The notes: generated from the letters alone by a model not told the origin. 64,000 bases of DNA from Escherichia coli O127:H6 str. E2348/69 (GCF_000026545.1 NC_011601.1); one strand, 5' to 3'; positions 29,673 through 39,021 are shown, counted from the stretch's first letter. Translations and numbers: made by a program.

Positions 29673-29974
29673 ACTGCTTATTCCTTGATAAAACGGTTAC
29701 ACACGCCAGGACGGCAAAATGAATCCCAAATCGGAATAGTCTGGATTTGGAAGGCTCACATTATCACCAAAAGAGTTTTACGCAAGCCTGTCGGTGCAGG
29801 GTTTACAAATTTAGCACAGGGGCAGTTTTCAAGAGTCCGAAAAGCGCATGGATTGTAGATTTATTTCTTATTTCCTAAGATTATGAAACCGCAATAGTAA
29901 TATGCAAATAAGCAATTAATAATCCCGTTTATTCCTCCGGTCTTTTAAAATTCTCACCTTCATTCAGCTGGTTT

Positions 29975-30733
29975 ATGTCCTTCATGTCTTCGTTCTTGCA
30001 CGGCAGATTTCTGCATCCAGGCGTGTTTTCGTTATGCGTTTTGCTCCCTTTACTCGCCAGCGCCACCACATCACATATCTCTTTTAGCTACGCCGCCCGC
30101 CAGCGGATGCAAAACCGTGCGCGTTTATTAAAACAGTACCAAACTCCTCTGAAAAAGCAGGCCAGCTATATTGTGGAAGGCAATGTCGAAAGCAGAAGGG
30201 CGCTGCGCCAGCACAACCGCGAACAGATAAAACAGCATCCAGAATGGTTTCCTGCGCCTCTCAAAGCGAACGACCGACGCTGGCAGGCGTTGGTGGAGAA
30301 TAATCATTTCTTAAGCAGCGACCATCTACATAACATCACCGAAGTGGCGATTCACCGCCTGGAGCAGCAGCTAGGTAAGCCTTATATCTGGGGGGGCACG
30401 CGGCCTGATAAAGGCTTCGACTGTAGCGGGTTGGTTTTTTATGCCTACAACAAGATCCTTGAGGCTAAGCTCCCGCGCACGGCCAATGAGATGTACCACT
30501 ACCGTCGGGCAACGATTGTGGTGAATAACGACCTGCGCCGGGGAGATTTGCTGTTTTTCCATATCCACAGTCGTGAGATAGCCGACCATATGGGCGTATA
30601 TCTTGGAGACGGTCAGTTTATCGAGTCACCGCGCACCGGGGAAACCATTCGGGTAAGTCGGTTAGCTGAACCTTTCTGGCAGGATCACTTTTTGGGTGCG
30701 CGCAGGATTTTGACGGAAGAGACGATTTTGTAA
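29975..30733 (+). CDS. yafL: NlpC/P60-family peptidoglycan endopeptidase lipoprotein YafL
   Basis: 252-aa ORF with catalytic Cys in DCSGLVFYAY and His in HMGVYLGDG; alternative start 29984. Confidence 0.8.
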   Translation: MSFMSSFLHGRFLHPGVFSLCVLLPLLASATTSHISFSYAARQRMQNRARLLKQYQTPLKKQASYIVEGNVESRRALRQHNREQIKQHPEWFPAPLKANDRRWQALVENNHFLSSDHLHNITEVAIHRLEQQLGKPYIWGGTRPDKGFDCSGLVFYAYNKILEAKLPRTANEMYHYRRATIVVNNDLRRGDLLFFHIHSREIADHMGVYLGDGQFIESPRTGETIRVSRLAEPFWQDHFLGARRILTEETIL

Positions 30734-30789
30734 ATGGGTAATATTGACGAACTGGCAAAAGGTCGGATGCCACGCGGCATCCGACCTGT

Positions 30790-31146
30790 TTACATCTGGG
30801 CTGAAAACTCACGTTCTAAGACATCAATAATGAGCTGGTTTTTTGAAATGGAATGTTGTCTGGCGACGATGGTCAGCCGCGAATCAATGTGATGAGGAAC
30901 ACGAAGCGTCAGGCGTTTTTGCTCTTCTTCTTCACGAAAAGGGGCAATACCGTCCTCTTCACAATCCGCCATCCACTCATCCAGCGCGCTTTCGCCTTCA
31001 CGATATAATGCCTCAATACTTGTGGCTACAAAGTCACAATAACCGTTTACATTGAGGAACTTGCCGCGAAATGCGTTGATATCGGCTTCAAATGTCACTG
31101 CGGCTGGTTGACCTTTAATTGTGATAATGTTCGATGCTTTATTCAT
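30790..31146 (-). CDS. HicB-like antitoxin candidate (C-terminal ribbon-helix-helix-like segment)
   Basis: 118-aa ORF; C-terminus KRLTLRVPHHIDSRLTIVARQHSISKNQLIIDVLERE resembles RHH DNA-binding; 8-bp overlap with upstream partner gene. Confidence 0.5.
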   Translation of the reverse strand: MNKASNIITIKGQPAAVTFEADINAFRGKFLNVNGYCDFVATSIEALYREGESALDEWMADCEEDGIAPFREEEEQKRLTLRVPHHIDSRLTIVARQHSISKNQLIIDVLEREFSAQM

Positions 31147-31438
31147 AATCTACCCCTACACAGTTAACAAACCACTCCTTAAGACCTGCTACTGCGCCTT
31201 TATCCATCACATTCTTTGGATGTGGCTCATGTGTGCTGAATTTGGTCGTTCCAATCTGAAATTTTCGTCTGGAGCCGTTGTTATTTTTTATTGTTCCACC
31301 CACAGCTTTAATGAGTGCAACAACATCATCCCATTTAATTCCAGATTTTGGCGGCTCCGTCATTACATCGTCGAATGTTTTTCTATGACGAGAGCCTAGC
31401 GCGCTGACCTTAATCATACTATCAATCCATGACGTCAT
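31139..31438 (-). CDS. HicA-like (YcfA-family) toxin candidate
   Basis: 99-aa ORF; segment GGTIKNNNGSRRKFQIGTTKFSTHEPHPKNVMDKGAVAGLKEW resembles HicA core; precedes HicB-like ORF with overlap. Confidence 0.45.
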   Translation of the reverse strand: MTSWIDSMIKVSALGSRHRKTFDDVMTEPPKSGIKWDDVVALIKAVGGTIKNNNGSRRKFQIGTTKFSTHEPHPKNVMDKGAVAGLKEWFVNCVGVDYE

Positions 31439-31521
31439 TGTATGGTGTCATCGTAGTCTCTTTGCAGTGTGACGTCAATTAATGGTGTCAGGTGCTGCAA
31501 AGCATGGAAAAGATTCCTCAA

Positions 31522-33250
31522 TCAACTCAACGCCCCCATAATCTTCAACTCCAGCTCGTCCGGCACTTCGTTATACGACAGCACATGCAGCCCCGGCGCA
31601 AACAACCTTGCGTAGCGCGCCAGCAAGGGGCGCAGCTGCGGCGGCACCAGCAGCACTGGATCTTTCCCCGCCGCTTTCATCTGTTCCTTCACCTGCGGCA
31701 TCGTGATCTGAAACTGGTTGAGCATATTCGGGTCCACCGGCACGCTATCGAGCATCACTTTGCCGGCCTGTTGCGCCTGATTCACCACGTTGGTCAGCAG
31801 ATTTTCCAGCTCATTATTCAGCGTATACACCGTCAGCTCCTGCTTGCGAACGAACGGATGGGTTATGCTGCGCCGCAGCGCCAGGCGCACATCGGCCGCC
31901 AGCAGAATATGATCTTTAGTCACCGCACTACTGGCGACCAACACGGTGGCGATGGTGACGATATCGCGCAGGGAAACGCCTTCAGTCAGTAGCGCCCGGT
32001 ACACTTTCAGCAACTAGCTGTAATTGAGCGCCGCGCTCAAATCTTCCGCCAGTCGCGGTGCCATCGACGACAAACGGTTATGCAGCTGAGTAATATCGTC
32101 ATAGTTAAACAAATCAGGAATATAGCTGCGCACAATCTTATTCACATGGGTGGCAATTACGCTGGCGCTGTCGATCACCTGATACCCCATATTCAGCGCC
32201 TTCGCTTTCTGCGCGGGCTGAATCCAGGTGACCGGCATCCCGTACGCCGGGTCGTTCCCCAGCACGCCGTCTATCTCGCCGTAGGTTTCGCTGGAGGGCA
32301 GGGCCATCAGTTTATCTGCCGGAATATCCGCTTCATCAGCCTTAATGCCGTTGATGAAAATGGCGTACTGGCTGGGCTTGAGGCGGAAGTTTTCCCGAAT
32401 GCGGATCTCCGGCAGCAGCACGCCGTTGCCGTCAGAAATCACCTGCCGCACGCCGCGAATCCGCTGGGTGAGCGGGTTACCCTGTGCTTTGTCCACCAGC
32501 GCCACCAGCTTGTAGCCGAGGCTTAAACTGATGGGCTCGATCAGCGGAATGGTTTCCCAACTGACCTGTTGCTCGCTGGTTTCGGTGATGGTTCGGGTCA
32601 GCGTTTCGAGGCTTTTCTCCTCCGCCTCCGCCGCCTGCGGCTGTTTGCTCATCCGCCAGCCGGTAAAGCCAAGCAGGGCGCTGAACAGCAAAAACGGCAG
32701 GTGCGGCATCCCCGGCACCACCGCCAGCACAAACATAATTCCGGTAGCGGTGTAGAGCACCGACGGGCTTGCCAGCAACTGGTGGCGCACGTCATGGGCA
32801 ATATCGCCATTATCGCTGACGCGGGTGACGATAATCGCCGCTGCGGTGGAGAGCAGCAGGGAAGGGATCTGTGCCACCAGTCCGTCGCCGATGGTCATCA
32901 ACACATATTGCTGGAAGGCGGCGTCGGCGCTCAGGTTGTATTTGAAGATCCCGATACAGACGCCGCCGATCAGGTTGATCGCCAGAATCATCATCCCGGC
33001 GATGGCGTCTCCGCGCACAAACTTCGATGCCCCGTCCATCGCACCGTAGAAATCGGCCTCGCTGGCAACATCTTTACGCCGGGTTTGCGCCTGCGCCTGG
33101 TTGATCAATCCGGCGTTAAGATCGGCGTCAATCGCCATCTGTTTGCCGGGCATCGCGTCCAGGGTAAAGCGGGCAGAAACCTCGGAAATACGCTCGGCCC
33201 CTTTGGTGACGACAATAAAGTTGATAGTGAACAGCGTCAGTAAATCCGAG
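31522..33250 (-). pseudogene. lfhA: Flag-2 lateral flagellar export protein FlhA homologue remnant (N-terminally deleted, in-frame TAG)
   Basis: FlhA-like sequence (FTLDAMPGKQMAIDADLNAGLI) runs from about 33250 to 32017; TAG at 32014-32016 interrupts, FlhA-like C-terminus continues 32013..31522. Confidence 0.7.
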
Positions 33251-33991
33251 CGTGAAAGCATTATCGCCGCGCTGCACGGGCAGTCGATTTTCAATGGCGG
33301 CGGGCTGTCGCCGTTAAATAAAATCAGCCCGACGCATCCGCCGAAACCTGCCACCGTGGCGGTGCCGGAAGAGACGGAGAAAAAAGCGCGCGACGTCAAC
33401 GAGAAAACGGCGCTACTGAAGAAGAAGTCCGCCACTGAGCTTGGCGAGCTGGCGACCAGTATCAACACCATCGTCCGCGATGCGCATATGGAAGCCAATC
33501 TGGAGATGGAGATTGTTCCGCAGGGATTACGCGTGCTGATTAAAGATGACCAGAACCGCAATATGTTTGAACGCGGCAGCGCGAAGATTATGCCGTTCTT
33601 TAAAACGCTGCTGGTGGAACTCGCGCCGGTATTCGACTCGCTCGACAACAAAATTATTATTACCGGGCATACCGATGCGATGGCCTATAAAAGCAATATC
33701 TACAACAACTGGAACCTTTCGGGTGACCGCGCGCTTTCGGCTCGTCGGGTACTGGAAGAGGCCGGGATGCCGGAAGATAAAGTGATGCAGGTGAGCGCAA
33801 TGGCGGACCAGATGCTGCTGGACGCGAAAAATCCGCAAAGTGCGGGTAACCGGCGCATTGAGATTATGGTGCTCACCAAAAGCGCGTCCGATACGTTGTA
33901 TCAATATTTTGGTCAGCATGGGGATAAGGTGGTGCAGCCGCTGGTGAAAAAGCTGGATAAGCAGCAGGTGCTTTCGCACCGAACGCGTTAA
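33251..33991 (+). pseudogene. lafU: Flag-2 MotB-like LafU remnant (OmpA-like C-terminal domain retained)
   Basis: OmpA/MotB-like C-terminal domain (IIITGHTDAMAYKSNIYNNWNLSGDRALSARRVL); no N-terminal TM segment; abuts lfhA remnant. Confidence 0.6.
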
Positions 33992-34027
33992 ATGCTGAAT
34001 CTTTACGCATTTCTCAAACTCTGAAAT

Positions 34028-34047
34028 CACTGTATACTTTACCAGTG
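34028..34047 (+). promoter_or_regulatory. LexA SOS box upstream of dinB
   Basis: CACTGTATACTTTACCAGTG fits CTGT-N8-ACAG consensus, about 15 bp upstream of dinB start. Confidence 0.7.
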
Positions 34048-34061
34048 TTGAGAGGTGAGCA

Positions 34062-35117
34062 ATGCGTAAAATCATTCATGTGGATATGGACTGCTTTTTC
34101 GCCGCGGTGGAGATGCGCGACAATCCCGCCCTGCGCGATATCCCTATTGCTATTGGCGGCAGCCGCGAACGCCGGGGGGTGATCAGCACCGCCAATTATC
34201 CCGCGCGTAAATTTGGCGTGCGTAGCGCAATGCCAACCGGCATGGCGCTCAAACTGTGTCCGCATCTCACCTTGCTTCCAGGACGCTTTGACGCCTACAA
34301 AGAAGCGTCAAATCATATCCGCGAAATTTTCTCGCGCTATACCTCGCGCATTGAACCGTTATCACTGGATGAAGCCTATCTCGAGGTCACCGATAGTGTG
34401 CATTGCCACGGCTCCGCGACCCTCATCGCCCAGGAAATCCGCCAGACGATTTTCAACGAGCTGCAATTGACGGCATCTGCGGGCGTTGCGCCGGTAAAGT
34501 TTCTCGCCAAAATTGCTTCCGACATGAATAAACCCAACGGTCAGTTTGTGATTACTCCGGCTGAGGTTCCGGCATTTCTGCAAACCTTACCGCTGGCAAA
34601 AATTCCCGGCGTCGGCAAAGTCTCAGCGGCTAAACTGGAAGCTATGGGGCTACGAACCTGCGGTGATGTGCAAAAGTGTGATCTGGTGACTCTGCTCAAA
34701 CGTTTTGGCAAATTTGGCCGCATTTTGTGGGAGCGTAGTCAGGGCATTGACGAGCGCGATGTTAACAGCGAAAGGTTGCGAAAATCCGTCGGTGTAGAAC
34801 GTACGATGGCGGAAGATATTCATCACTGGTCTGAATGTGAAGCGATCATCGAGCGGCTTTACCCTGAACTGGAGCGTCGTTTGGCAAAGGTAAAACCTGA
34901 TTTGCTGATTGCCCGCCAGGGGGTGAAATTAAAGTTCGACGATTTTCAGCAAACTACTCAGGAGCACGTCTGGCCGCGGCTGAATAAATCTGCTCTAATC
35001 GCCACCGCGCGTAAAACCTGGGATGAACGCCGCGGCGGGCGCGGTGTGCGGCTGGTGGGGCTGCATGTGACGTTGCTTGACCCGCAAATGGAAAGACAAC
35101 TGGTGCTGGGATTATGA
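34062..35117 (+). CDS. dinB: DNA polymerase IV (Y-family translesion polymerase)
   Basis: 351-aa ORF starting MRKIIHVDMDCFFAAVEMRDNPALRDIPIAIGG. Confidence 0.9.
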   Translation: MRKIIHVDMDCFFAAVEMRDNPALRDIPIAIGGSRERRGVISTANYPARKFGVRSAMPTGMALKLCPHLTLLPGRFDAYKEASNHIREIFSRYTSRIEPLSLDEAYLEVTDSVHCHGSATLIAQEIRQTIFNELQLTASAGVAPVKFLAKIASDMNKPNGQFVITPAEVPAFLQTLPLAKIPGVGKVSAAKLEAMGLRTCGDVQKCDLVTLLKRFGKFGRILWERSQGIDERDVNSERLRKSVGVERTMAEDIHHWSECEAIIERLYPELERRLAKVKPDLLIARQGVKLKFDDFQQTTQEHVWPRLNKSALIATARKTWDERRGGRGVRLVGLHVTLLDPQMERQLVLGL

Positions 35118-35566
35118 ATAACATACAAATAAGAAACTATCAGCCTGGCGATTTTCAGCAACTATGCGCTATTTTCATTAGAGCGGTTACGATGACCGCC
35201 AGTCAGCATTATTCACCACAACAAATTGCCGCCTGGGCGCAGATTGACGAATCTCGCTGGAAGGAGAAACTCGCGAAATCACAAGTGCGGGTTGCAGTTA
35301 TTAATGCACAACCGGTTGGTTTTATCTCCCGCATTGAACATTATATCGATATGTTATTTGTTGACCCTGAATACACCCTCCGTGGGGTTGCCAGCGCTTT
35401 GTTAAAACCTTTGATTAAGTCTGAATCCGAACTTACGGTGGACGCCAGCATAACCGCAAAACCCTTTTTTGAACGTTATGGTTTTCAGACAGTTAAGCAG
35501 CAGCGCGTTGAATGCCGGGGAGCGTGGTTTACTAATTTTTATATGCGATATAAACCGCAACATTAA
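35114..35566 (+). CDS. yafP: GNAT-family acetyltransferase YafP
   Basis: 150-aa ORF; start overlaps dinB stop (ATGA); GNAT-like fold signature. Confidence 0.8.
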   Translation: MNNIQIRNYQPGDFQQLCAIFIRAVTMTASQHYSPQQIAAWAQIDESRWKEKLAKSQVRVAVINAQPVGFISRIEHYIDMLFVDPEYTLRGVASALLKPLIKSESELTVDASITAKPFFERYGFQTVKQQRVECRGAWFTNFYMRYKPQH

Positions 35567-35744
35567 ATCCAGCTTGCAAAGAAAATAACGCCCGCCTAGT
35601 ATGTGCGCGTTTTCTTATTCCACAAACTGCAAGGAGGTAAATCATGACAAATCCTTTATCAATGACTCTTTGCAGACCTTTCCAGGATTAATTCTTTTTT
35701 TCTTGCCCTGGATTCGTCTGCCATTTCCTGATTTTTATTCATAA

Positions 35745-36896
35745 ATGGAATGGTACATGGGCAAATATATTCGTCCCTTATCTGATGCGGTACTTACCAT
35801 CGCATCTGATGACCTGTGGATCGAGAGTTCAGCGATCCAACAATTACACACCACGGCAAATTTACCCGACATGCAACGCGTAGTAGGGATGCCAGATTTA
35901 CACCCCGGACGCGGCTATCCGATTGGCGCAGCGTTCTTCTCCGTAGGCCGTTTTTACCCGGCACTGGTCGGCAATGATATCGGCTGCGGTATGGCGCTAT
36001 GGCAAACAGATATTTTCGCGCGCAAATACAACGCCGATAAGTTTGAAAAGCGATTATCAGATCTGGATGACGTTGCTGAAGAAAGCTGGCTGGAGGAAAA
36101 CCTGCCGTCAGCATTTGCACAGCATCCGTGGCGCAGCTCGCTTGGCTCCATCGGTGGCGGTAACCACTTCGCAGAACTGCAACAGATTGATCAAATTATC
36201 GACGCGGAACTGTTTGCACTGGCTGGTCTGGATGCGCAGCATCTGCAACTGCTGGTTCATAGCGGCTCGAGGGGGTTGGGGCAGTCTATTTTACAGCGGC
36301 ATATTGCCTCGTTTTCGCATCATGGTTTGCCGGAAGGCAGTGACGACGCGCTAAGTTATATTGCGGAACATGATGATGCGCTGGCGTTTGCGCGTATTAA
36401 TCGCCAGCTGATCGCTTTGCGCATAATGCAACAAGTTAAGGCCAACGGAAATTCGGTTCTGGATGTGGCGCATAACTTTGTTAGCGCATGTCGAATCGGC
36501 GATCAACAGGGCTGGTTACACCGTAAAGGGGCTACGCCGGATGACAACGGTCTGGTGATTATTCCCGGTTCACGCGGTGATTACTCCTGGCTGGTTAAGC
36601 CTGTTGCGAACGAAAAAACGCTCCACTCGCTGGCGCATGGGGCAGGGCGTAAATGGGGGCGCACCGAGTGTAAAGGGCGTCTGGCAGCGAAATACACGGC
36701 GACGCAACTCTCACGTACTGAACTTGGCAGTCGGGTAATTTGTCGCGATAAACAACTCATCTTTGAAGAAGCGCCACAAGCCTATAAATCGGCTGAAAGT
36801 GTGGTGCAATGTCTGGTGCTGGCTGGGTTAATTATTCCTGTCGCGCGACTGCGTCCGGTGCTGACGCTCAAAAACAGTGGAGGGAAAAAAGGATGA
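35745..36896 (+). CDS. rtcB2: RtcB-family RNA ligase paralogue (RtcB2; full-length counterpart of K-12 ykfJ)
   Basis: 383-aa ORF with RtcB motifs [30 protein letters not shown]; stop overlaps prfH start (ATGA); true start may be 35757. Confidence 0.8.
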
Positions 36897-37474
36897 TCTT
36901 GCTACAACTCTCCTCAGCTCAGGGGCCGGAAGAATGTTGTCTCGCAGTGAAAAAGGCACTGGACAGGCTGATTAAAGAAGCTGCCCGACAAGACGTCGCG
37001 GTAACGGTGCTGGAAACAGAAACGGGTCGCTACTCTGACACACTACGTTCGGCGCTGGTTTCACTTGATGGCGACAACGCATGGGCTCTAAGCGAAAGCT
37101 GGTGCGGCACTATTCAGTGGATTTGTCCGAGTCCGTATCGGCCTCATCATGGGCGCAAAAACTGGTTTCTGGGCATTGGGCGTTTTACCGCTGATGAGCA
37201 GGAACAATCGGATGCAATCCGTTATGAGACGCTGCGTTCGTCGGGGCCGGGCGGTCAACATGTCAATAAAACCGACTCGGCGGTACGCGCCACGCATCTG
37301 GCATCCGGTATTAGCGTGAAGGTTCAGTCAGAGCGCAGTCAGCATGCTAACAAACGGCTGGCGCGATTACTGATTGCCTGGAAGCTGGAACAACAGCAAC
37401 AGGAAAATAGCGCGGCGCTGAAATCGCAGCGGCGAATGTTCCATCACCAGATTGAACGTGGCAACCCGCGATGA
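36893..37474 (+). CDS. prfH: Peptide chain release factor homologue PrfH (GGQ motif)
   Basis: Start [24 protein letters not shown] motif [15 protein letters not shown]; translationally coupled to rtcB2. Confidence 0.85.
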
Positions 37475-37563
37475 ACGTTTACAGGGATGGCTTTTATCGA
37501 AGGATAATGAAGGATGAAACTGCCGGAAGGCGATTAAACGCCATCCGGCAGCAAATCAAATAA

Positions 37564-39021
37564 TTACTTCGCCGGAATTTCTTTCAGCAGTTCAGTCAGA
37601 AGCGTCCAGTAATGACCAACGCTTTCGATATGAACTTGCTCATCCGGGGAGTGTGGACCGGTGATGGTTGGCCCGATAGACACCATGTCCATTTCCGGAT
37701 ACGGTTTTTTGAACAGACCACATTCGAGGCCCGCGTGGATAATCTGGATGTTCGGCGTTTTGTTGAACAGACGCTGATAGGTTTCACGTACCAGATGCAT
37801 TACCGGAGAGTTAGCGTCCGGCTGCCAGCCAGGATATGCGCCTTTTGCTTCTGTTTTCGCACCTGCCAGTTTACCCAGTGAATCCAGCATGCTCACTACG
37901 TAGTCTTTACCGCTGTCGATCAGAGAACGGATCAGGCAGTGAATTTCTACGTTATTGTCGGTCATGGTCACCACACCGACGTTCAGGGAGGTTTCGACCA
38001 CACCTTTTGCCACGTCGGAGTTGCGGATCACACCGTTCGGGGTGGCGTTCAGCAGACGAATAAAGGTATCGCGAGATGTCGCCGTTAATGCAGCTTTGTC
38101 GTTCGCTACGGAGTCCAGCAGCAATGCCAGATTCTTCTCTTTTTCTGCCAGTTCGTTTTTCAGGATCTCCTGATAGGTATCCACCAGAGATTTCAGGGCG
38201 TCGACTTTATCAGCTGCGACAGCAATGGTCGCAAAGGCTTCACGCGGGATGGCGTTACGCAGTGTGCCGCCGTTGAAATCAATAAGACGCAGGTCCAGTT
38301 CTTCTGCATGACCCGCCAGGAAGCGCACCAACAGTTTGTTGGCATTACCCAGGCCAACGTGGATTTCACCGCCGGAGTGACCGCCTTTCAGACCTTTTAA
38401 GGTTAACTTGAAGGTTTCAAAACCAGCTGGAACCGCTTCACGATCTAAATGCAGGTTGGAGGTGAAGTCGATACCTCCCGCACAACCCATGTAGATTTCA
38501 CCTTCTTCTTCGGAGTCGGTGTTAATCAGAATATCAGCCTGCAACCAGTTGCTCTGTAAGCCAAAAGCACCGTCCATACCGGCTTCTTCGGTCATGGTCA
38601 GCAGCACTTCCAGCGGGCCGTGAACCACGTTTTCGTCAGCCAGAACCGCCAGTGCAGAGGCCATACCAATGCCGTTATCCGCACCCAGCGTGGTGCCGCG
38701 TGCTTTAACCCATTCGCCATCAATATAAGGCTGGATAGGATCTTTGGTGAAGTCATGCACGGTGTCGTTATTTTTTTGCGGCACCATATCGAGGTGGGCC
38801 TGCAAGACGACCGGTTTACGATTTTCCATACCTGCGGTAGCAGGTTTACGAATCAGGATATTACCTACCTGATCGCGTTCGACATGGAAACCTTTCTCTT
38901 TTGCCCAACCAACAATGTATTCAGCGAGTTGCTCTTCATGATAGGACGGGTGAGGAATAGAACAGATTTTGGCAAAAATATCCCACAGCGGCTGTGGAGA
39001 TAATTGAGACAGTTCAGACAC
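37564..39021 (-). CDS. pepD: Cytosol non-specific dipeptidase PepD (aminoacyl-histidine dipeptidase)
   Basis: 485-aa ORF; M20-family metallopeptidase; synteny. Confidence 0.9.
   Translation of the reverse strand: MSELSQLSPQPLWDIFAKICSIPHPSYHEEQLAEYIVGWAKEKGFHVERDQVGNILIRKPATAGMENRKPVVLQAHLDMVPQKNNDTVHDFTKDPIQPYIDGEWVKARGTTLGADNGIGMASALAVLADENVVHGPLEVLLTMTEEAGMDGAFGLQSNWLQADILINTDSEEEGEIYMGCAGGIDFTSNLHLDREAVPAGFETFKLTLKGLKGGHSGGEIHVGLGNANKLLVRFLAGHAEELDLRLIDFNGGTLRNAIPREAFATIAVAADKVDALKSLVDTYQEILKNELAEKEKNLALLLDSVANDKAALTATSRDTFIRLLNATPNGVIRNSDVAKGVVETSLNVGVVTMTDNNVEIHCLIRSLIDSGKDYVVSMLDSLGKLAGAKTEAKGAYPGWQPDANSPVMHLVRETYQRLFNKTPNIQIIHAGLECGLFKKPYPEMDMVSIGPTITGPHSPDEQVHIESVGHYWTLLTELLKEIPAK

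What the first reader, a model, noticed from the sequence alone, without database searches (positions are those of the whole stretch)
29673..35566. Two K-12 toxin-antitoxin operons (yafQ-dinJ and yafN-yafO) are absent
Only about 300 bp of non-coding DNA separates yafK (ends 29672) from yafL (starts 29975), where K-12 from memory has yafQ-dinJ. dinB is followed directly by yafP with an ATGA overlap (35114-35117), where K-12 has dinB-yafN-yafO-yafP. The SOS LexA box upstream of dinB is intact (34028-34047). So the SOS-linked TA content differs from K-12, while a different TA-like pair is present nearby.
Basis: partly seen in the sequence, partly recalled or inferred. Interest (0 to 1): 0.4.

Follow-up and report, generated by a model that had tools for sequence, protein, structure and literature searches.

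The report
Two K-12 toxin-antitoxin pairs naturally absent
This stretch of the E. coli E2348/69 chromosome really does lack the yafQ-dinJ and yafN-yafO toxin-antitoxin pairs found in the K-12 lab strain, but this is a common natural variant, seen in about 40-50% of E. coli genomes and already published.

Summary
The window is the E. coli E2348/69 chromosome (100% identity). A 302-bp non-coding spacer separates yafK/dpaA from yafL. dinB and yafP overlap by ATGA at 35114-35117. The dinB LexA box matches K-12 exactly. DinJ, YafQ, YafN and YafO have no homologue in the 64-kb window, and no K-12-type copy lies elsewhere on the chromosome.

It is not new. Among 5,426 complete E. coli genomes, 2,084 carry this dinJ-yafQ-free spacer and 3,340 carry dinJ-yafQ. 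2,565 have the direct dinB|yafP junction and 2,847 have yafNO. Gutierrez et al. 2011 (NAR) described the two-gene dinB-yafP operon with its ATGA overlap in 40-50% of strains. Later reviews repeat it.

The two absences probably have different histories.
- yafNO looks like a secondary loss. It is a precise 752-bp deletion between two ATTATGA repeats. Three sister Escherichia species and B2 strains with the closest dinB alleles all keep the cassette.
- The dinJ-yafQ site looks like an ancestral empty site. A sister species is collinear with E2348/69 there, and none of the 79 non-E. coli loci fetched around dinB has the pair.

A HicA/HicB pair (30790-31438, minus strand) replaces K-12's rayT. Interest is low.

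The parts
28932..29672 (-). yafK/dpaA (peptidoglycan meso-DAP protein amidase), the left flank of the dinJ-yafQ site
   Evidence: ORF. 100% amino-acid identity to K-12 DpaA. RefSeq annotation.
29673..29974 (.). 302-bp non-coding yafK-yafL spacer, the empty dinJ-yafQ site. Homology to K-12 ends at 29812.
   Evidence: Sequence. K-12 homology breakpoints. The same spacer occurs in 2,084 of 5,426 E. coli genomes. It is collinear with sister-species locus L003 at about 91%. No Rfam family matches it. 39% G+C.
29813..30047 (.). 235-bp segment with no blastn match to K-12. It takes the place of 830 bp of K-12 holding yafQ, dinJ, the dinJ LexA box, the yafL promoter region and the yafL 5' end.
   Evidence: blastn K-12 against window, junction sequences, multiple alignment A1.
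29975..30733 (+). yafL (NlpC/P60 C40 peptidase). Its N-terminal signal-peptide region differs from K-12.
   Evidence: tblastn gives 91% identity from K-12 residue 9 onward. NlpC/P60 hits in NCBIfam. RefSeq starts the gene at 29984.
31139..31438 (-). HicA-family toxin gene, upstream member of the pair. RefSeq start corresponds to 31417.
   Evidence: Pfam HicA_toxin PF07927, E = 7.7e-07. RefSeq product name.
30790..31146 (-). HicB-family antitoxin gene, overlapping hicA by 8 nt. With hicA it occupies the place of K-12 rayT and its REP repeats.
   Evidence: Pfam HicB PF05534, E = 4.1e-10. K-12 L001:7462-8363 is replaced by window 30733-31526. Present at this site in 1,479 of 5,426 genomes.
34028..34047 (+). 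LexA (SOS) box of the dinB promoter
   Evidence: CACTGTATACTTTACCAGTG, identical to K-12. CTGT-N9-CAG match at 34030-34045. Function taken from established knowledge of the dinB operon (PMC3105422).
34062..35117 (+). dinB (DNA polymerase IV)
   Evidence: 98.9% amino-acid identity to K-12 DinB but only 93.3% nucleotide identity.
35111..35117 (+). Single ATTATGA copy, the junction left where the 752-bp yafNO cassette is missing. It contains the dinB stop and yafP start overlap, ATGA at 35114-35117.
   Evidence: In K-12 and in loci L002-L004, L088 and L089, ATTATGA flanks the cassette on both sides. Here there is one copy. The uninterrupted junction occurs in 2,565 of 5,426 genomes.
35114..35566 (+). 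yafP (GNAT N-acetyltransferase), second and last gene of the two-gene SOS operon
   Evidence: NCBIfam NF007338, 324 bits. 97.3% amino-acid identity to K-12 YafP.

Best explanation
This region of the EPEC strain E2348/69 (phylogroup B2 from background knowledge, not tested here) carries common natural alleles at two variable toxin-antitoxin sites.

(1) dinB-yafP. The 752-bp yafN-yafO cassette sits between two 7-bp ATTATGA repeats in four-gene operons. It has been removed precisely, leaving one ATTATGA. As a result the dinB stop codon overlaps the yafP start codon (ATGA). The operon is therefore LexA box, dinB, yafP. It is still SOS-controlled. YafP is presumably translated by coupling to dinB termination, which is an inference. 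I read this as a secondary loss, either by slippage or recombination between the repeats or by allelic replacement with an already deleted allele. It arose on a B2-type dinB background and independently of the identical junction in the 55989/TK3046-type two-gene genomes (55989 is phylogroup B1 from background knowledge).

(2) yafK-yafL. The 302-bp spacer is the ancestral, never-occupied state. K-12-type strains gained an 830-bp, 40.5% G+C segment carrying yafQ-dinJ with its own LexA box and a different yafL 5' end.

Consequence (inferred): the E2348/69 SOS regulon lacks both SOS-linked mRNA-interferase TA modules. Polymerase IV, YafP, YafK and YafL are all retained. An unrelated HicAB pair lies next to yafL.
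For: Shown:
- The genes are absent and the junctions are exact.
- There is no other copy on the chromosome.
- Population counts are almost perfectly complementary. Spacer 2,084 plus dinJ-yafQ 3,340 gives 5,424 of 5,426. Direct junction 2,565 plus yafNO 2,847 gives 5,412 of 5,426.
- ATTATGA lies at both ends of the cassette in K-12, S88, Z1323HEC0423 and three sister Escherichia species.

For yafNO being a loss:
- All three sister-species loci (L002, L003, L004; 92-94% nucleotide identity to the window) carry yafN or yafNO.
- The dinB alleles closest to E2348/69 (97%) belong to four-gene strains S88 and Z1323HEC0423.
- The two-gene dinB alleles of 55989 and TK3046 are 97-98% identical to K-12 and only about 93% to E2348/69.
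- The paper reports a four-gene operon in E. fergusonii and at least three losses (PMC3105422).
- No other genus examined has the ATGA overlap. Their dinB stop and yafP start are 2-8 nt apart in the close-set cases, and 24-33 nt apart in L054 and L058.

For dinJ-yafQ being a gain in K-12:
- L003 is collinear with E2348/69 right across the spacer.
- No DinJ or YafQ hit appears in any of the 79 non-E. coli loci fetched around dinB that were screened, most of which contain dpaA (the 80th locus, L081, is listed there but the FASTA grouping of /data makes 79 the count I can vouch for from the table rows with dpaA or dinB context outside E. coli proper).
- The K-12 segment has low G+C (40.5%) and brings a different yafL 5' end.
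- Literature places yafQ-dinJ in groups A/B1(/F) rather than B2.
Against: - Polarity is inferred from few outgroups.
- The yafNO cassette is less diverged between lineages and species (96-99%) than its flanks (92-95%). That fits recent horizontal spread of the cassette, meaning gains as well as losses.
- A 7-bp direct repeat could equally be a target duplication.
- Other genera have dinB next to yafP without a TA pair.
- Recombination is evident here. Nucleotide identity to K-12 changes from 93% (dinB) to 98% (yafP) exactly at the junction. This weakens tree-based arguments.
- Translational coupling of yafP is inferred, not shown. Gutierrez et al. instead suggested frameshifting.
Confidence: 0.8

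Rival explanations
1. The two-gene dinB-yafP state in E2348/69 is ancestral and was never occupied. In this view K-12-type strains acquired yafNO by insertion, which duplicated the 7-bp ATTATGA target.
For: - In Pseudocitrobacter, Citrobacter, Klebsiella, Atlantibacter and Intestinirhabdus, dinB is followed directly by yafP.
- The cassette has 42% G+C against 54% for dinB.
- It is 96-99% identical across Escherichia species, while its flanks are 92-95%.
- The flanking 7-bp direct repeat looks like a target-site duplication.
Against: - All three sister Escherichia species sampled, and E. fergusonii according to PMC3105422, carry the cassette.
- The dinB alleles closest to E2348/69 are in four-gene strains.
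- The ATGA overlap is not seen in any empty site of another genus.
- No transposase or integrase is associated with the cassette.
Confidence: 0.2
2. dinJ-yafQ was present in the ancestor of E2348/69 and was deleted, together with a rearrangement of the yafL 5' region.
For: TA modules are often lost. Rare mosaic spacers exist: strain BS-01 (L083) mixes K-12-like and E2348-like stretches without dinJ-yafQ.
Against: - No DinJ or YafQ remnant is detectable in the window.
- Sister-species locus L003 has the same spacer and the same yafL 5' end in collinear form.
- None of the non-E. coli loci screened has the pair.
Confidence: 0.12
3. The absences are assembly or window artefacts, or the genes have simply moved elsewhere in this genome.
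For: None found.
Against: - The window is identical to a finished chromosome, and two other O127:H6 chromosomes match the tested segment.
- More than 2,000 independent complete genomes share each junction.
- The chimeric query found no second place on the E2348/69 chromosome.
Confidence: 0.02

Closest known systems
Two-gene dinB-yafP SOS operon of E. coli CFT073 and other natural isolates (Gutierrez et al. 2011, NAR; PMC3105422)
   Same: LexA-controlled dinB is followed directly by yafP. The dinB stop and yafP start overlap as ATGA. yafN and yafO are absent. The paper found this form in 40-50% of strains, and it occurs in 47% of complete genomes here.
   Different: Nothing substantive. This work adds three points. 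The repeat at the deletion ends is 7 bp (ATTATGA), not 4 bp. The E2348/69 allele sits on a distinct dinB background from the 55989/TK3046-type allele. The cassette is less diverged than its flanks.
K-12 four-gene operon dinB-yafN-yafO-yafP, which contains the YafNO type II TA module
   Same: Same promoter and LexA box, same dinB and yafP (98.9% and 97.3% amino-acid identity), same genomic position.
   Different: The 752-bp cassette holding yafN, yafO and its leader is missing.
K-12 dinJ-yafQ type II TA locus between yafK/dpaA and yafL
   Same: Same flanking genes and the same first 140 bp of spacer next to yafK.
   Different: No dinJ, no yafQ and no dinJ LexA box. A different yafL upstream region and N-terminal coding sequence. 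235 bp here against 830 bp in K-12.
HicAB type II toxin-antitoxin systems
   Same: A small HicA_toxin-domain protein is encoded upstream of, and overlaps, a HicB-domain protein. RefSeq names them HicA and HicB family.
   Different: This is not the K-12 hicAB locus, which lies between yncJ and ydcR according to PMC5120126. No NCBIfam model matches either protein. Toxicity and neutralisation were not tested.

Membership tests
Two-gene dinB-yafP operon allele (Gutierrez et al. 2011) | dinB stop codon overlaps the yafP start codon as ATGA | tested here: met
   TTATGA at 35112-35117, with ATG at 35114-35116 and TGA at 35115-35117.
Two-gene dinB-yafP operon allele (Gutierrez et al. 2011) | No yafN or yafO between dinB and yafP | tested here: met
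   tblastn found no hit better than E = 1.9. K-12 L001:11955-12706 has no counterpart in the window.
Two-gene dinB-yafP operon allele (Gutierrez et al. 2011) | LexA box upstream of dinB (SOS control) | tested here: met
   The 20-mer is identical to K-12 at 34028-34047. Actual SOS induction was not tested.
DinJ-YafQ type II TA system | DinJ antitoxin and YafQ toxin genes present | tested here: not met
   No tblastn hit in 64 kb. No megablast hit elsewhere on the E2348/69 chromosome.
YafN-YafO type II TA system | YafN antitoxin and YafO toxin genes present | tested here: not met
HicAB type II TA system (the neighbouring pair) | HicA_toxin domain protein | tested here: met
   PF07927, E = 7.7e-07, residues 36-84.
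HicAB type II TA system (the neighbouring pair) | HicB domain antitoxin encoded immediately downstream of the toxin | tested here: met
   PF05534, E = 4.1e-10. The genes overlap by 8 nt on the minus strand.
HicAB type II TA system (the neighbouring pair) | Toxin inhibits growth and is neutralised by the antitoxin | not testable with these tools
   Needs expression experiments.

The most novel reading that the evidence does not exclude
The 752-bp yafNO cassette may not be an old resident that is repeatedly lost. It could be a unit that still moves between Escherichia lineages and species, always into the dinB/yafP junction bounded by ATTATGA. Supporting this, it is 96-99% identical among E. coli K-12 and S88, a cryptic Escherichia species and E. 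whittamii, while the adjacent dinB and yafP are only 92-95% identical. Divergence from K-12 also jumps exactly at the junction in E2348/69. If so, the presence/absence pattern would reflect ongoing gain by flank-guided recombination as much as loss.
Probability: 0.2. Interest if true: 0.3.

Novelty: already known. Interest (0 to 1): 0.1.

Why it matters
The value is mainly practical. K-12 is a poor template for the TA and SOS gene content of pathogenic E. coli. E2348/69 has an SOS regulon without the YafO and YafQ mRNA interferases. Conclusions about SOS-linked TA modules, persistence or polar effects on yafP and yafK drawn in K-12 therefore do not transfer to it. The locus is also a clear example of TA cassettes behaving as dispensable accessory insertions inside otherwise conserved operons. 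None of this is new to the field.

Tried and rejected
- First chimeric query. It joined the E2348/69 yafL-hicAB segment to K-12 yafQ-dinJ and yafNO, to read the number of matching places for E2348/69. It failed because genomes with dinJ-yafQ next to yafL-hicAB outranked E2348/69. It did reveal a third haplotype: dinJ-yafQ present, hicAB present, and (for 55989 and TK3046) no yafNO. A second design using a distant core segment worked.
- NCBIfam gave no family for the HicA-like or HicB-like proteins. Pfam did.
- An Rfam scan of 27000-38000 found nothing in the yafK-yafL spacer or around the dinB/yafP junction. It found only a naRNA4/REP element at 28000-28077 and one chance-level hit.
- The promoter and terminator scan of the spacer gave only weak consensus matches, 2 against about 1 expected, so I draw nothing from it.
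It did not return E. fergusonii, E. albertii or E. marmotae, so the outgroup evidence within the genus rests on three other species.
- No cross-tabulation of the two polymorphisms by genome or by phylogroup was possible, because the tool lists at most 60 rows. Only marginal counts are given.
- The small ORFs in the spacer (29685-29858 and 29747-29878) were considered and dismissed. They lie in sequence that is non-coding in all annotations.
Full report
**Identity of the window and check of the observation**

Window 28900-37500 matches the chromosome of E. coli E2348/69 (NZ_CP059840.2) at 100% identity over its full length. E2348/69 is an O127:H6 EPEC strain; its B2 assignment, like the other phylogroup labels below, comes from background knowledge and the cited papers rather than from typing done here. 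The ORF map and the RefSeq annotation agree on this gene order:
- gmhA, yafJ
- yafK/dpaA (28932-29672, minus strand)
- a non-coding spacer
- yafL (29975-30733; RefSeq starts it at 29984)
- a HicB/HicA pair on the minus strand
- the lfhA pseudogene, lafU
- dinB (34062-35117), yafP (35114-35566)
- rtcB-family gene, prfH, pepD

The K-12 MG1655 record for the same region (L001) has yafQ-dinJ between dpaA and yafL. It has rayT after yafL, and yafN-yafO between dinB and yafP.

I ran tblastn of the K-12 proteins against the whole 64-kb window. DinB, YafP, DpaA and YafL were recovered at 91-100% identity. Nothing better than E = 1.3 was found for DinJ, YafQ, YafN or YafO, and nothing better than E = 0.36 for RayT. 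The ATGA overlap is exactly at 35114-35117. The dinB LexA box CACTGTATACTTTACCAGTG at 34028-34047 is identical to K-12.

To test for relocation, I joined an E2348/69 core segment to K-12 yafQ-dinJ and yafNO and searched all complete E. coli genomes. The E2348/69 chromosome and two other O127:H6 chromosomes each showed only one matching place, the core segment. No K-12-type copy therefore exists elsewhere on the chromosome, at megablast sensitivity.

**Anatomy of the two differences**

The dinB/yafP difference is a clean indel.
- K-12 reads ...GGGATTATGA | TGTATACTATT...(yafN, yafO)...TTTATATTATGA | ATAACATAC...
- The window reads ...GGGATTATGAATAACATAC...
- So 752 bp (L001:11955-12706) are missing, and they are flanked in K-12 by a 7-bp direct repeat, ATTATGA.
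- The same 752-bp length and both repeat copies occur in S88 and Z1323HEC0423 and in two other Escherichia species, L003 and L004.

The yafK-yafL difference is not a clean indel.
- Homology with K-12 stops at window 29812, which is 16 bp before the yafQ stop in K-12.
- It resumes at 30048, inside yafL.
- 235 bp here therefore stand in for 830 bp in K-12.
- The K-12 segment carries yafQ, dinJ, the dinJ promoter with its CTG-N10-CAG LexA box, the yafL upstream region and about the first 21 codons of yafL.
- The YafL N-terminal signal region consequently differs between the two haplotypes.
- Both TA segments are A+T-rich: 42.8% G+C for yafQ-dinJ and 42.0% for yafNO, against 54% for dinB and 50% for the window.

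**Population frequency**

Counts are out of 5,426 complete E. coli genomes.
- K-12-type yafQ-dinJ: 3,340 genomes.
- E2348/69-type spacer: 2,084 genomes. Together these make 5,424.
- yafNO cassette: 2,847 genomes.
- Uninterrupted dinB|yafP junction: 2,565 genomes. Together these make 5,412.

Each site is thus essentially a two-state polymorphism with both states common. The states combine freely:
- K-12 has dinJ-yafQ, rayT and yafNO.
- 55989 and TK3046 have dinJ-yafQ and hicAB but no yafNO; many further genomes share the dinJ-yafQ plus hicAB arrangement.
- S88 lacks dinJ-yafQ and has rayT and yafNO.
- E2348/69 lacks dinJ-yafQ, has hicAB and lacks yafNO.

**Literature**

Gutierrez et al. 2011 (PMC3105422) reported that 40% of sequenced strains and 50% of ECOR strains have only dinB and yafP. 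They found the two genes 'always fused' with a 4-nt ATGA overlap. They attributed this to recombination between two ATGA sequences of the four-gene operon. They noted the four-gene operon in E. fergusonii and inferred at least three losses, in B2, D and B1. They used the B2 strain CFT073 as their model for this reason.

Fraikin et al. 2020 (PMC7167474) restate that dinB-yafP forms an undisturbed bicistronic operon in strains lacking yafNO, for example UTI89. Two mBio papers place yafQ-dinJ in groups A/B1(/F) rather than B2. Fiedoruk et al. 2015 is the cited survey of TA distribution by phylogroup, but I did not read it. The finding is therefore already known.

**Polarity of the two events (inferred)**

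A DinB-based scan of one genome per species returned 80 loci. Three are other Escherichia species, at 92-94% nucleotide identity to the window: Escherichia sp. E1V33 (L002), a strain labelled E. coli that is the representative of a different species cluster (L003), and E. whittamii (L004).

Evidence on yafNO:
- All three sister species carry yafN or yafNO between dinB and yafP.
- The dinB alleles closest to E2348/69 (97%) belong to four-gene strains S88 and Z1323HEC0423.
- The two-gene allele of 55989 and TK3046 sits on a dinB that is 97-98% identical to K-12 and only about 93% to E2348/69.
- Other genera do have dinB directly followed by yafP: Pseudocitrobacter, Citrobacter, Klebsiella, Atlantibacter and Intestinirhabdus. 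There the stop and start are separated (2-8 nt in most, 24-33 nt in L054 and L058) rather than overlapping as ATGA.
- I therefore favour a secondary, recurrent, repeat-bounded loss for E2348/69. This agrees with the published view.

Evidence on dinJ-yafQ:
- L003 aligns collinearly with E2348/69 across the whole spacer and the yafL 5' end, at about 91%.
- No DinJ or YafQ hit occurs in any of the non-E. coli loci screened, most of which include dpaA.
- No remnant is detectable in the window.
- I therefore read the E2348/69 state as the ancestral empty site and the K-12 state as a gain.

Both inferences rest on few outgroups, in a region with obvious recombination.

**Complications worth recording**

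The yafNO cassette is 96-99% identical among K-12, S88, L003 and L004, while the flanking dinB and yafP are 92-95% identical. In E2348/69, nucleotide identity to K-12 changes from 93.3% in dinB to 97.7% in yafP, exactly at the junction. This is what one expects if the indel acts as a recombination boundary. It is also what one expects if the cassette has been exchanged more recently than its flanks. A pure 'ancestral cassette, repeated loss' history is therefore not the only possibility.

Pseudocitrobacter vendiensis carries yafNO at the same junction, while two congeners are empty. Its cassette is about as diverged from K-12 (77-78%) as its dinB is (79%). This argues for an old association of the cassette with this site.

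**How it works (functional reading)**

Shown: the promoter-proximal LexA box, dinB and yafP are all intact, and yafP begins within the dinB stop codon.

Inferred from established knowledge of the operon (PMC3105422): the two genes form one SOS-induced transcript. YafP is most simply made by termination-reinitiation coupling at ATGA. The upstream sequence TGGGATTATG offers only a weak Shine-Dalgarno-like GGGA. Gutierrez et al. proposed frameshifting instead.

Without yafNO and dinJ-yafQ, E2348/69 lacks both SOS-linked ribosome-dependent mRNA interferases. In K-12, dinJ-yafQ is thought to be co-transcribed with yafK (PMC5120126). Here the spacer must supply yafK's own promoter, and the scan gave only weak candidates.

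**The neighbouring pair**

ORFs 31139-31438 and 30790-31146 on the minus strand overlap by 8 nt. They hit Pfam HicA_toxin (E = 7.7e-07) and HicB (E = 4.1e-10) respectively. RefSeq names them accordingly. The segment 30733-31526 replaces K-12's rayT and REP repeats. It occurs at this site in 1,479 of 5,426 genomes. Activity as a TA system is untested.

**Verdict**

What they describe is an ordinary, frequent and already published presence/absence polymorphism of two accessory TA cassettes. Interest is low (0.1) and novelty is 'already known'. The only mildly open point is whether the yafNO pattern reflects loss only, or loss together with ongoing horizontal re-acquisition.

Noticed in passing
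window 30733-31526 (hicB 30790-31146, hicA 31139-31438, minus strand): A HicA/HicB-family pair occupies the place of K-12 rayT and its REP repeats. It is present at this site in 1,479 of 5,426 complete E. coli genomes. It combines freely with the presence or absence of dinJ-yafQ and yafNO.
   Followed up: partly
window 31430-31490: Two copies of a 21-nt motif, TGACGTCAttgtATGGTGTCA, lie 40 nt apart. The first overlaps the first in-frame ATG of the hicA ORF (31438) and both lie upstream of the RefSeq hicA start (31417). They could be an operator for HicB autoregulation.
   Followed up: no
window 35745-37474: The RtcB-family RNA ligase gene and prfH are intact here (NCBIfam NF007153 and TIGR03072). 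In K-12 the same genes are the pseudogenes ykfJ and prfH.
   Followed up: partly
window 31527-35117 versus 35111-35738: lfhA-lafU-dinB is only 94.6% identical to K-12, and dinB alone 93.3%, which is as diverged as sister species. yafP and downstream are 98% identical. The step falls exactly at the yafNO indel junction, which suggests a recombination boundary.
   Followed up: partly
L001:11955-12706, L088:6501-7252, L003:11057-11808, L004:3596-4347: The 752-bp yafNO cassette is 96-99% identical among E. coli K-12 and S88 and two other Escherichia species. The flanking dinB and yafP are 92-95% identical. The cassette appears younger than, or more recently exchanged than, its flanks.
   Followed up: partly
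L002:11108-11440 (Escherichia sp. E1V33): yafN is intact but yafO is deleted after about 9 codons. The deletion joins ...AAAACTTAT to ATTATGAATAAC at a short TTAT microhomology. The result is an orphan antitoxin gene between dinB and yafP.
   Followed up: partly
L012:11057-11818 (Pseudocitrobacter vendiensis) versus L006 and L007: yafNO (80-85% amino-acid and 77-78% nucleotide identity to K-12) sits at the same dinB/yafP junction in P. vendiensis. P. faecalis and an uncultured Pseudocitrobacter have the empty site. The same presence/absence polymorphism therefore exists in a second genus.
   Followed up: partly
window 29975-30047; L083:2331-2740 (strain BS-01): The YafL N-terminal signal-peptide region differs between dinJ-yafQ-bearing and empty haplotypes. 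About 30 genomes carry spacers only 80-90% identical to the E2348/69 one. BS-01 looks like a mosaic of K-12-like and E2348-like stretches and has no dinJ-yafQ.
   Followed up: partly
L086:8049-9839 (E. coli 55989): In 55989 the two-gene operon's yafP is interrupted by an IS4-like ISVsa5 element.
   Followed up: no
window 28000-28077: An Rfam naRNA4 (CssrE, REP-derived) element scores 80.6 bits between gmhA and yafJ. It is similar to the REP copies that flank rayT in K-12.
   Followed up: no
loci L005, L008-L011, L017, L020 and others (Citrobacter, Salmonella, Enterobacter): In many Enterobacteriaceae, dpaA lies only about 250-400 bp upstream of dinB, and pepD follows dinB directly. So yafL, rayT or hicAB, the Flag-2 remnant lfhA-lafU, yafP and rtcB-prfH are all lineage-specific additions around a conserved dpaA-dinB-pepD core.
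   Followed up: no
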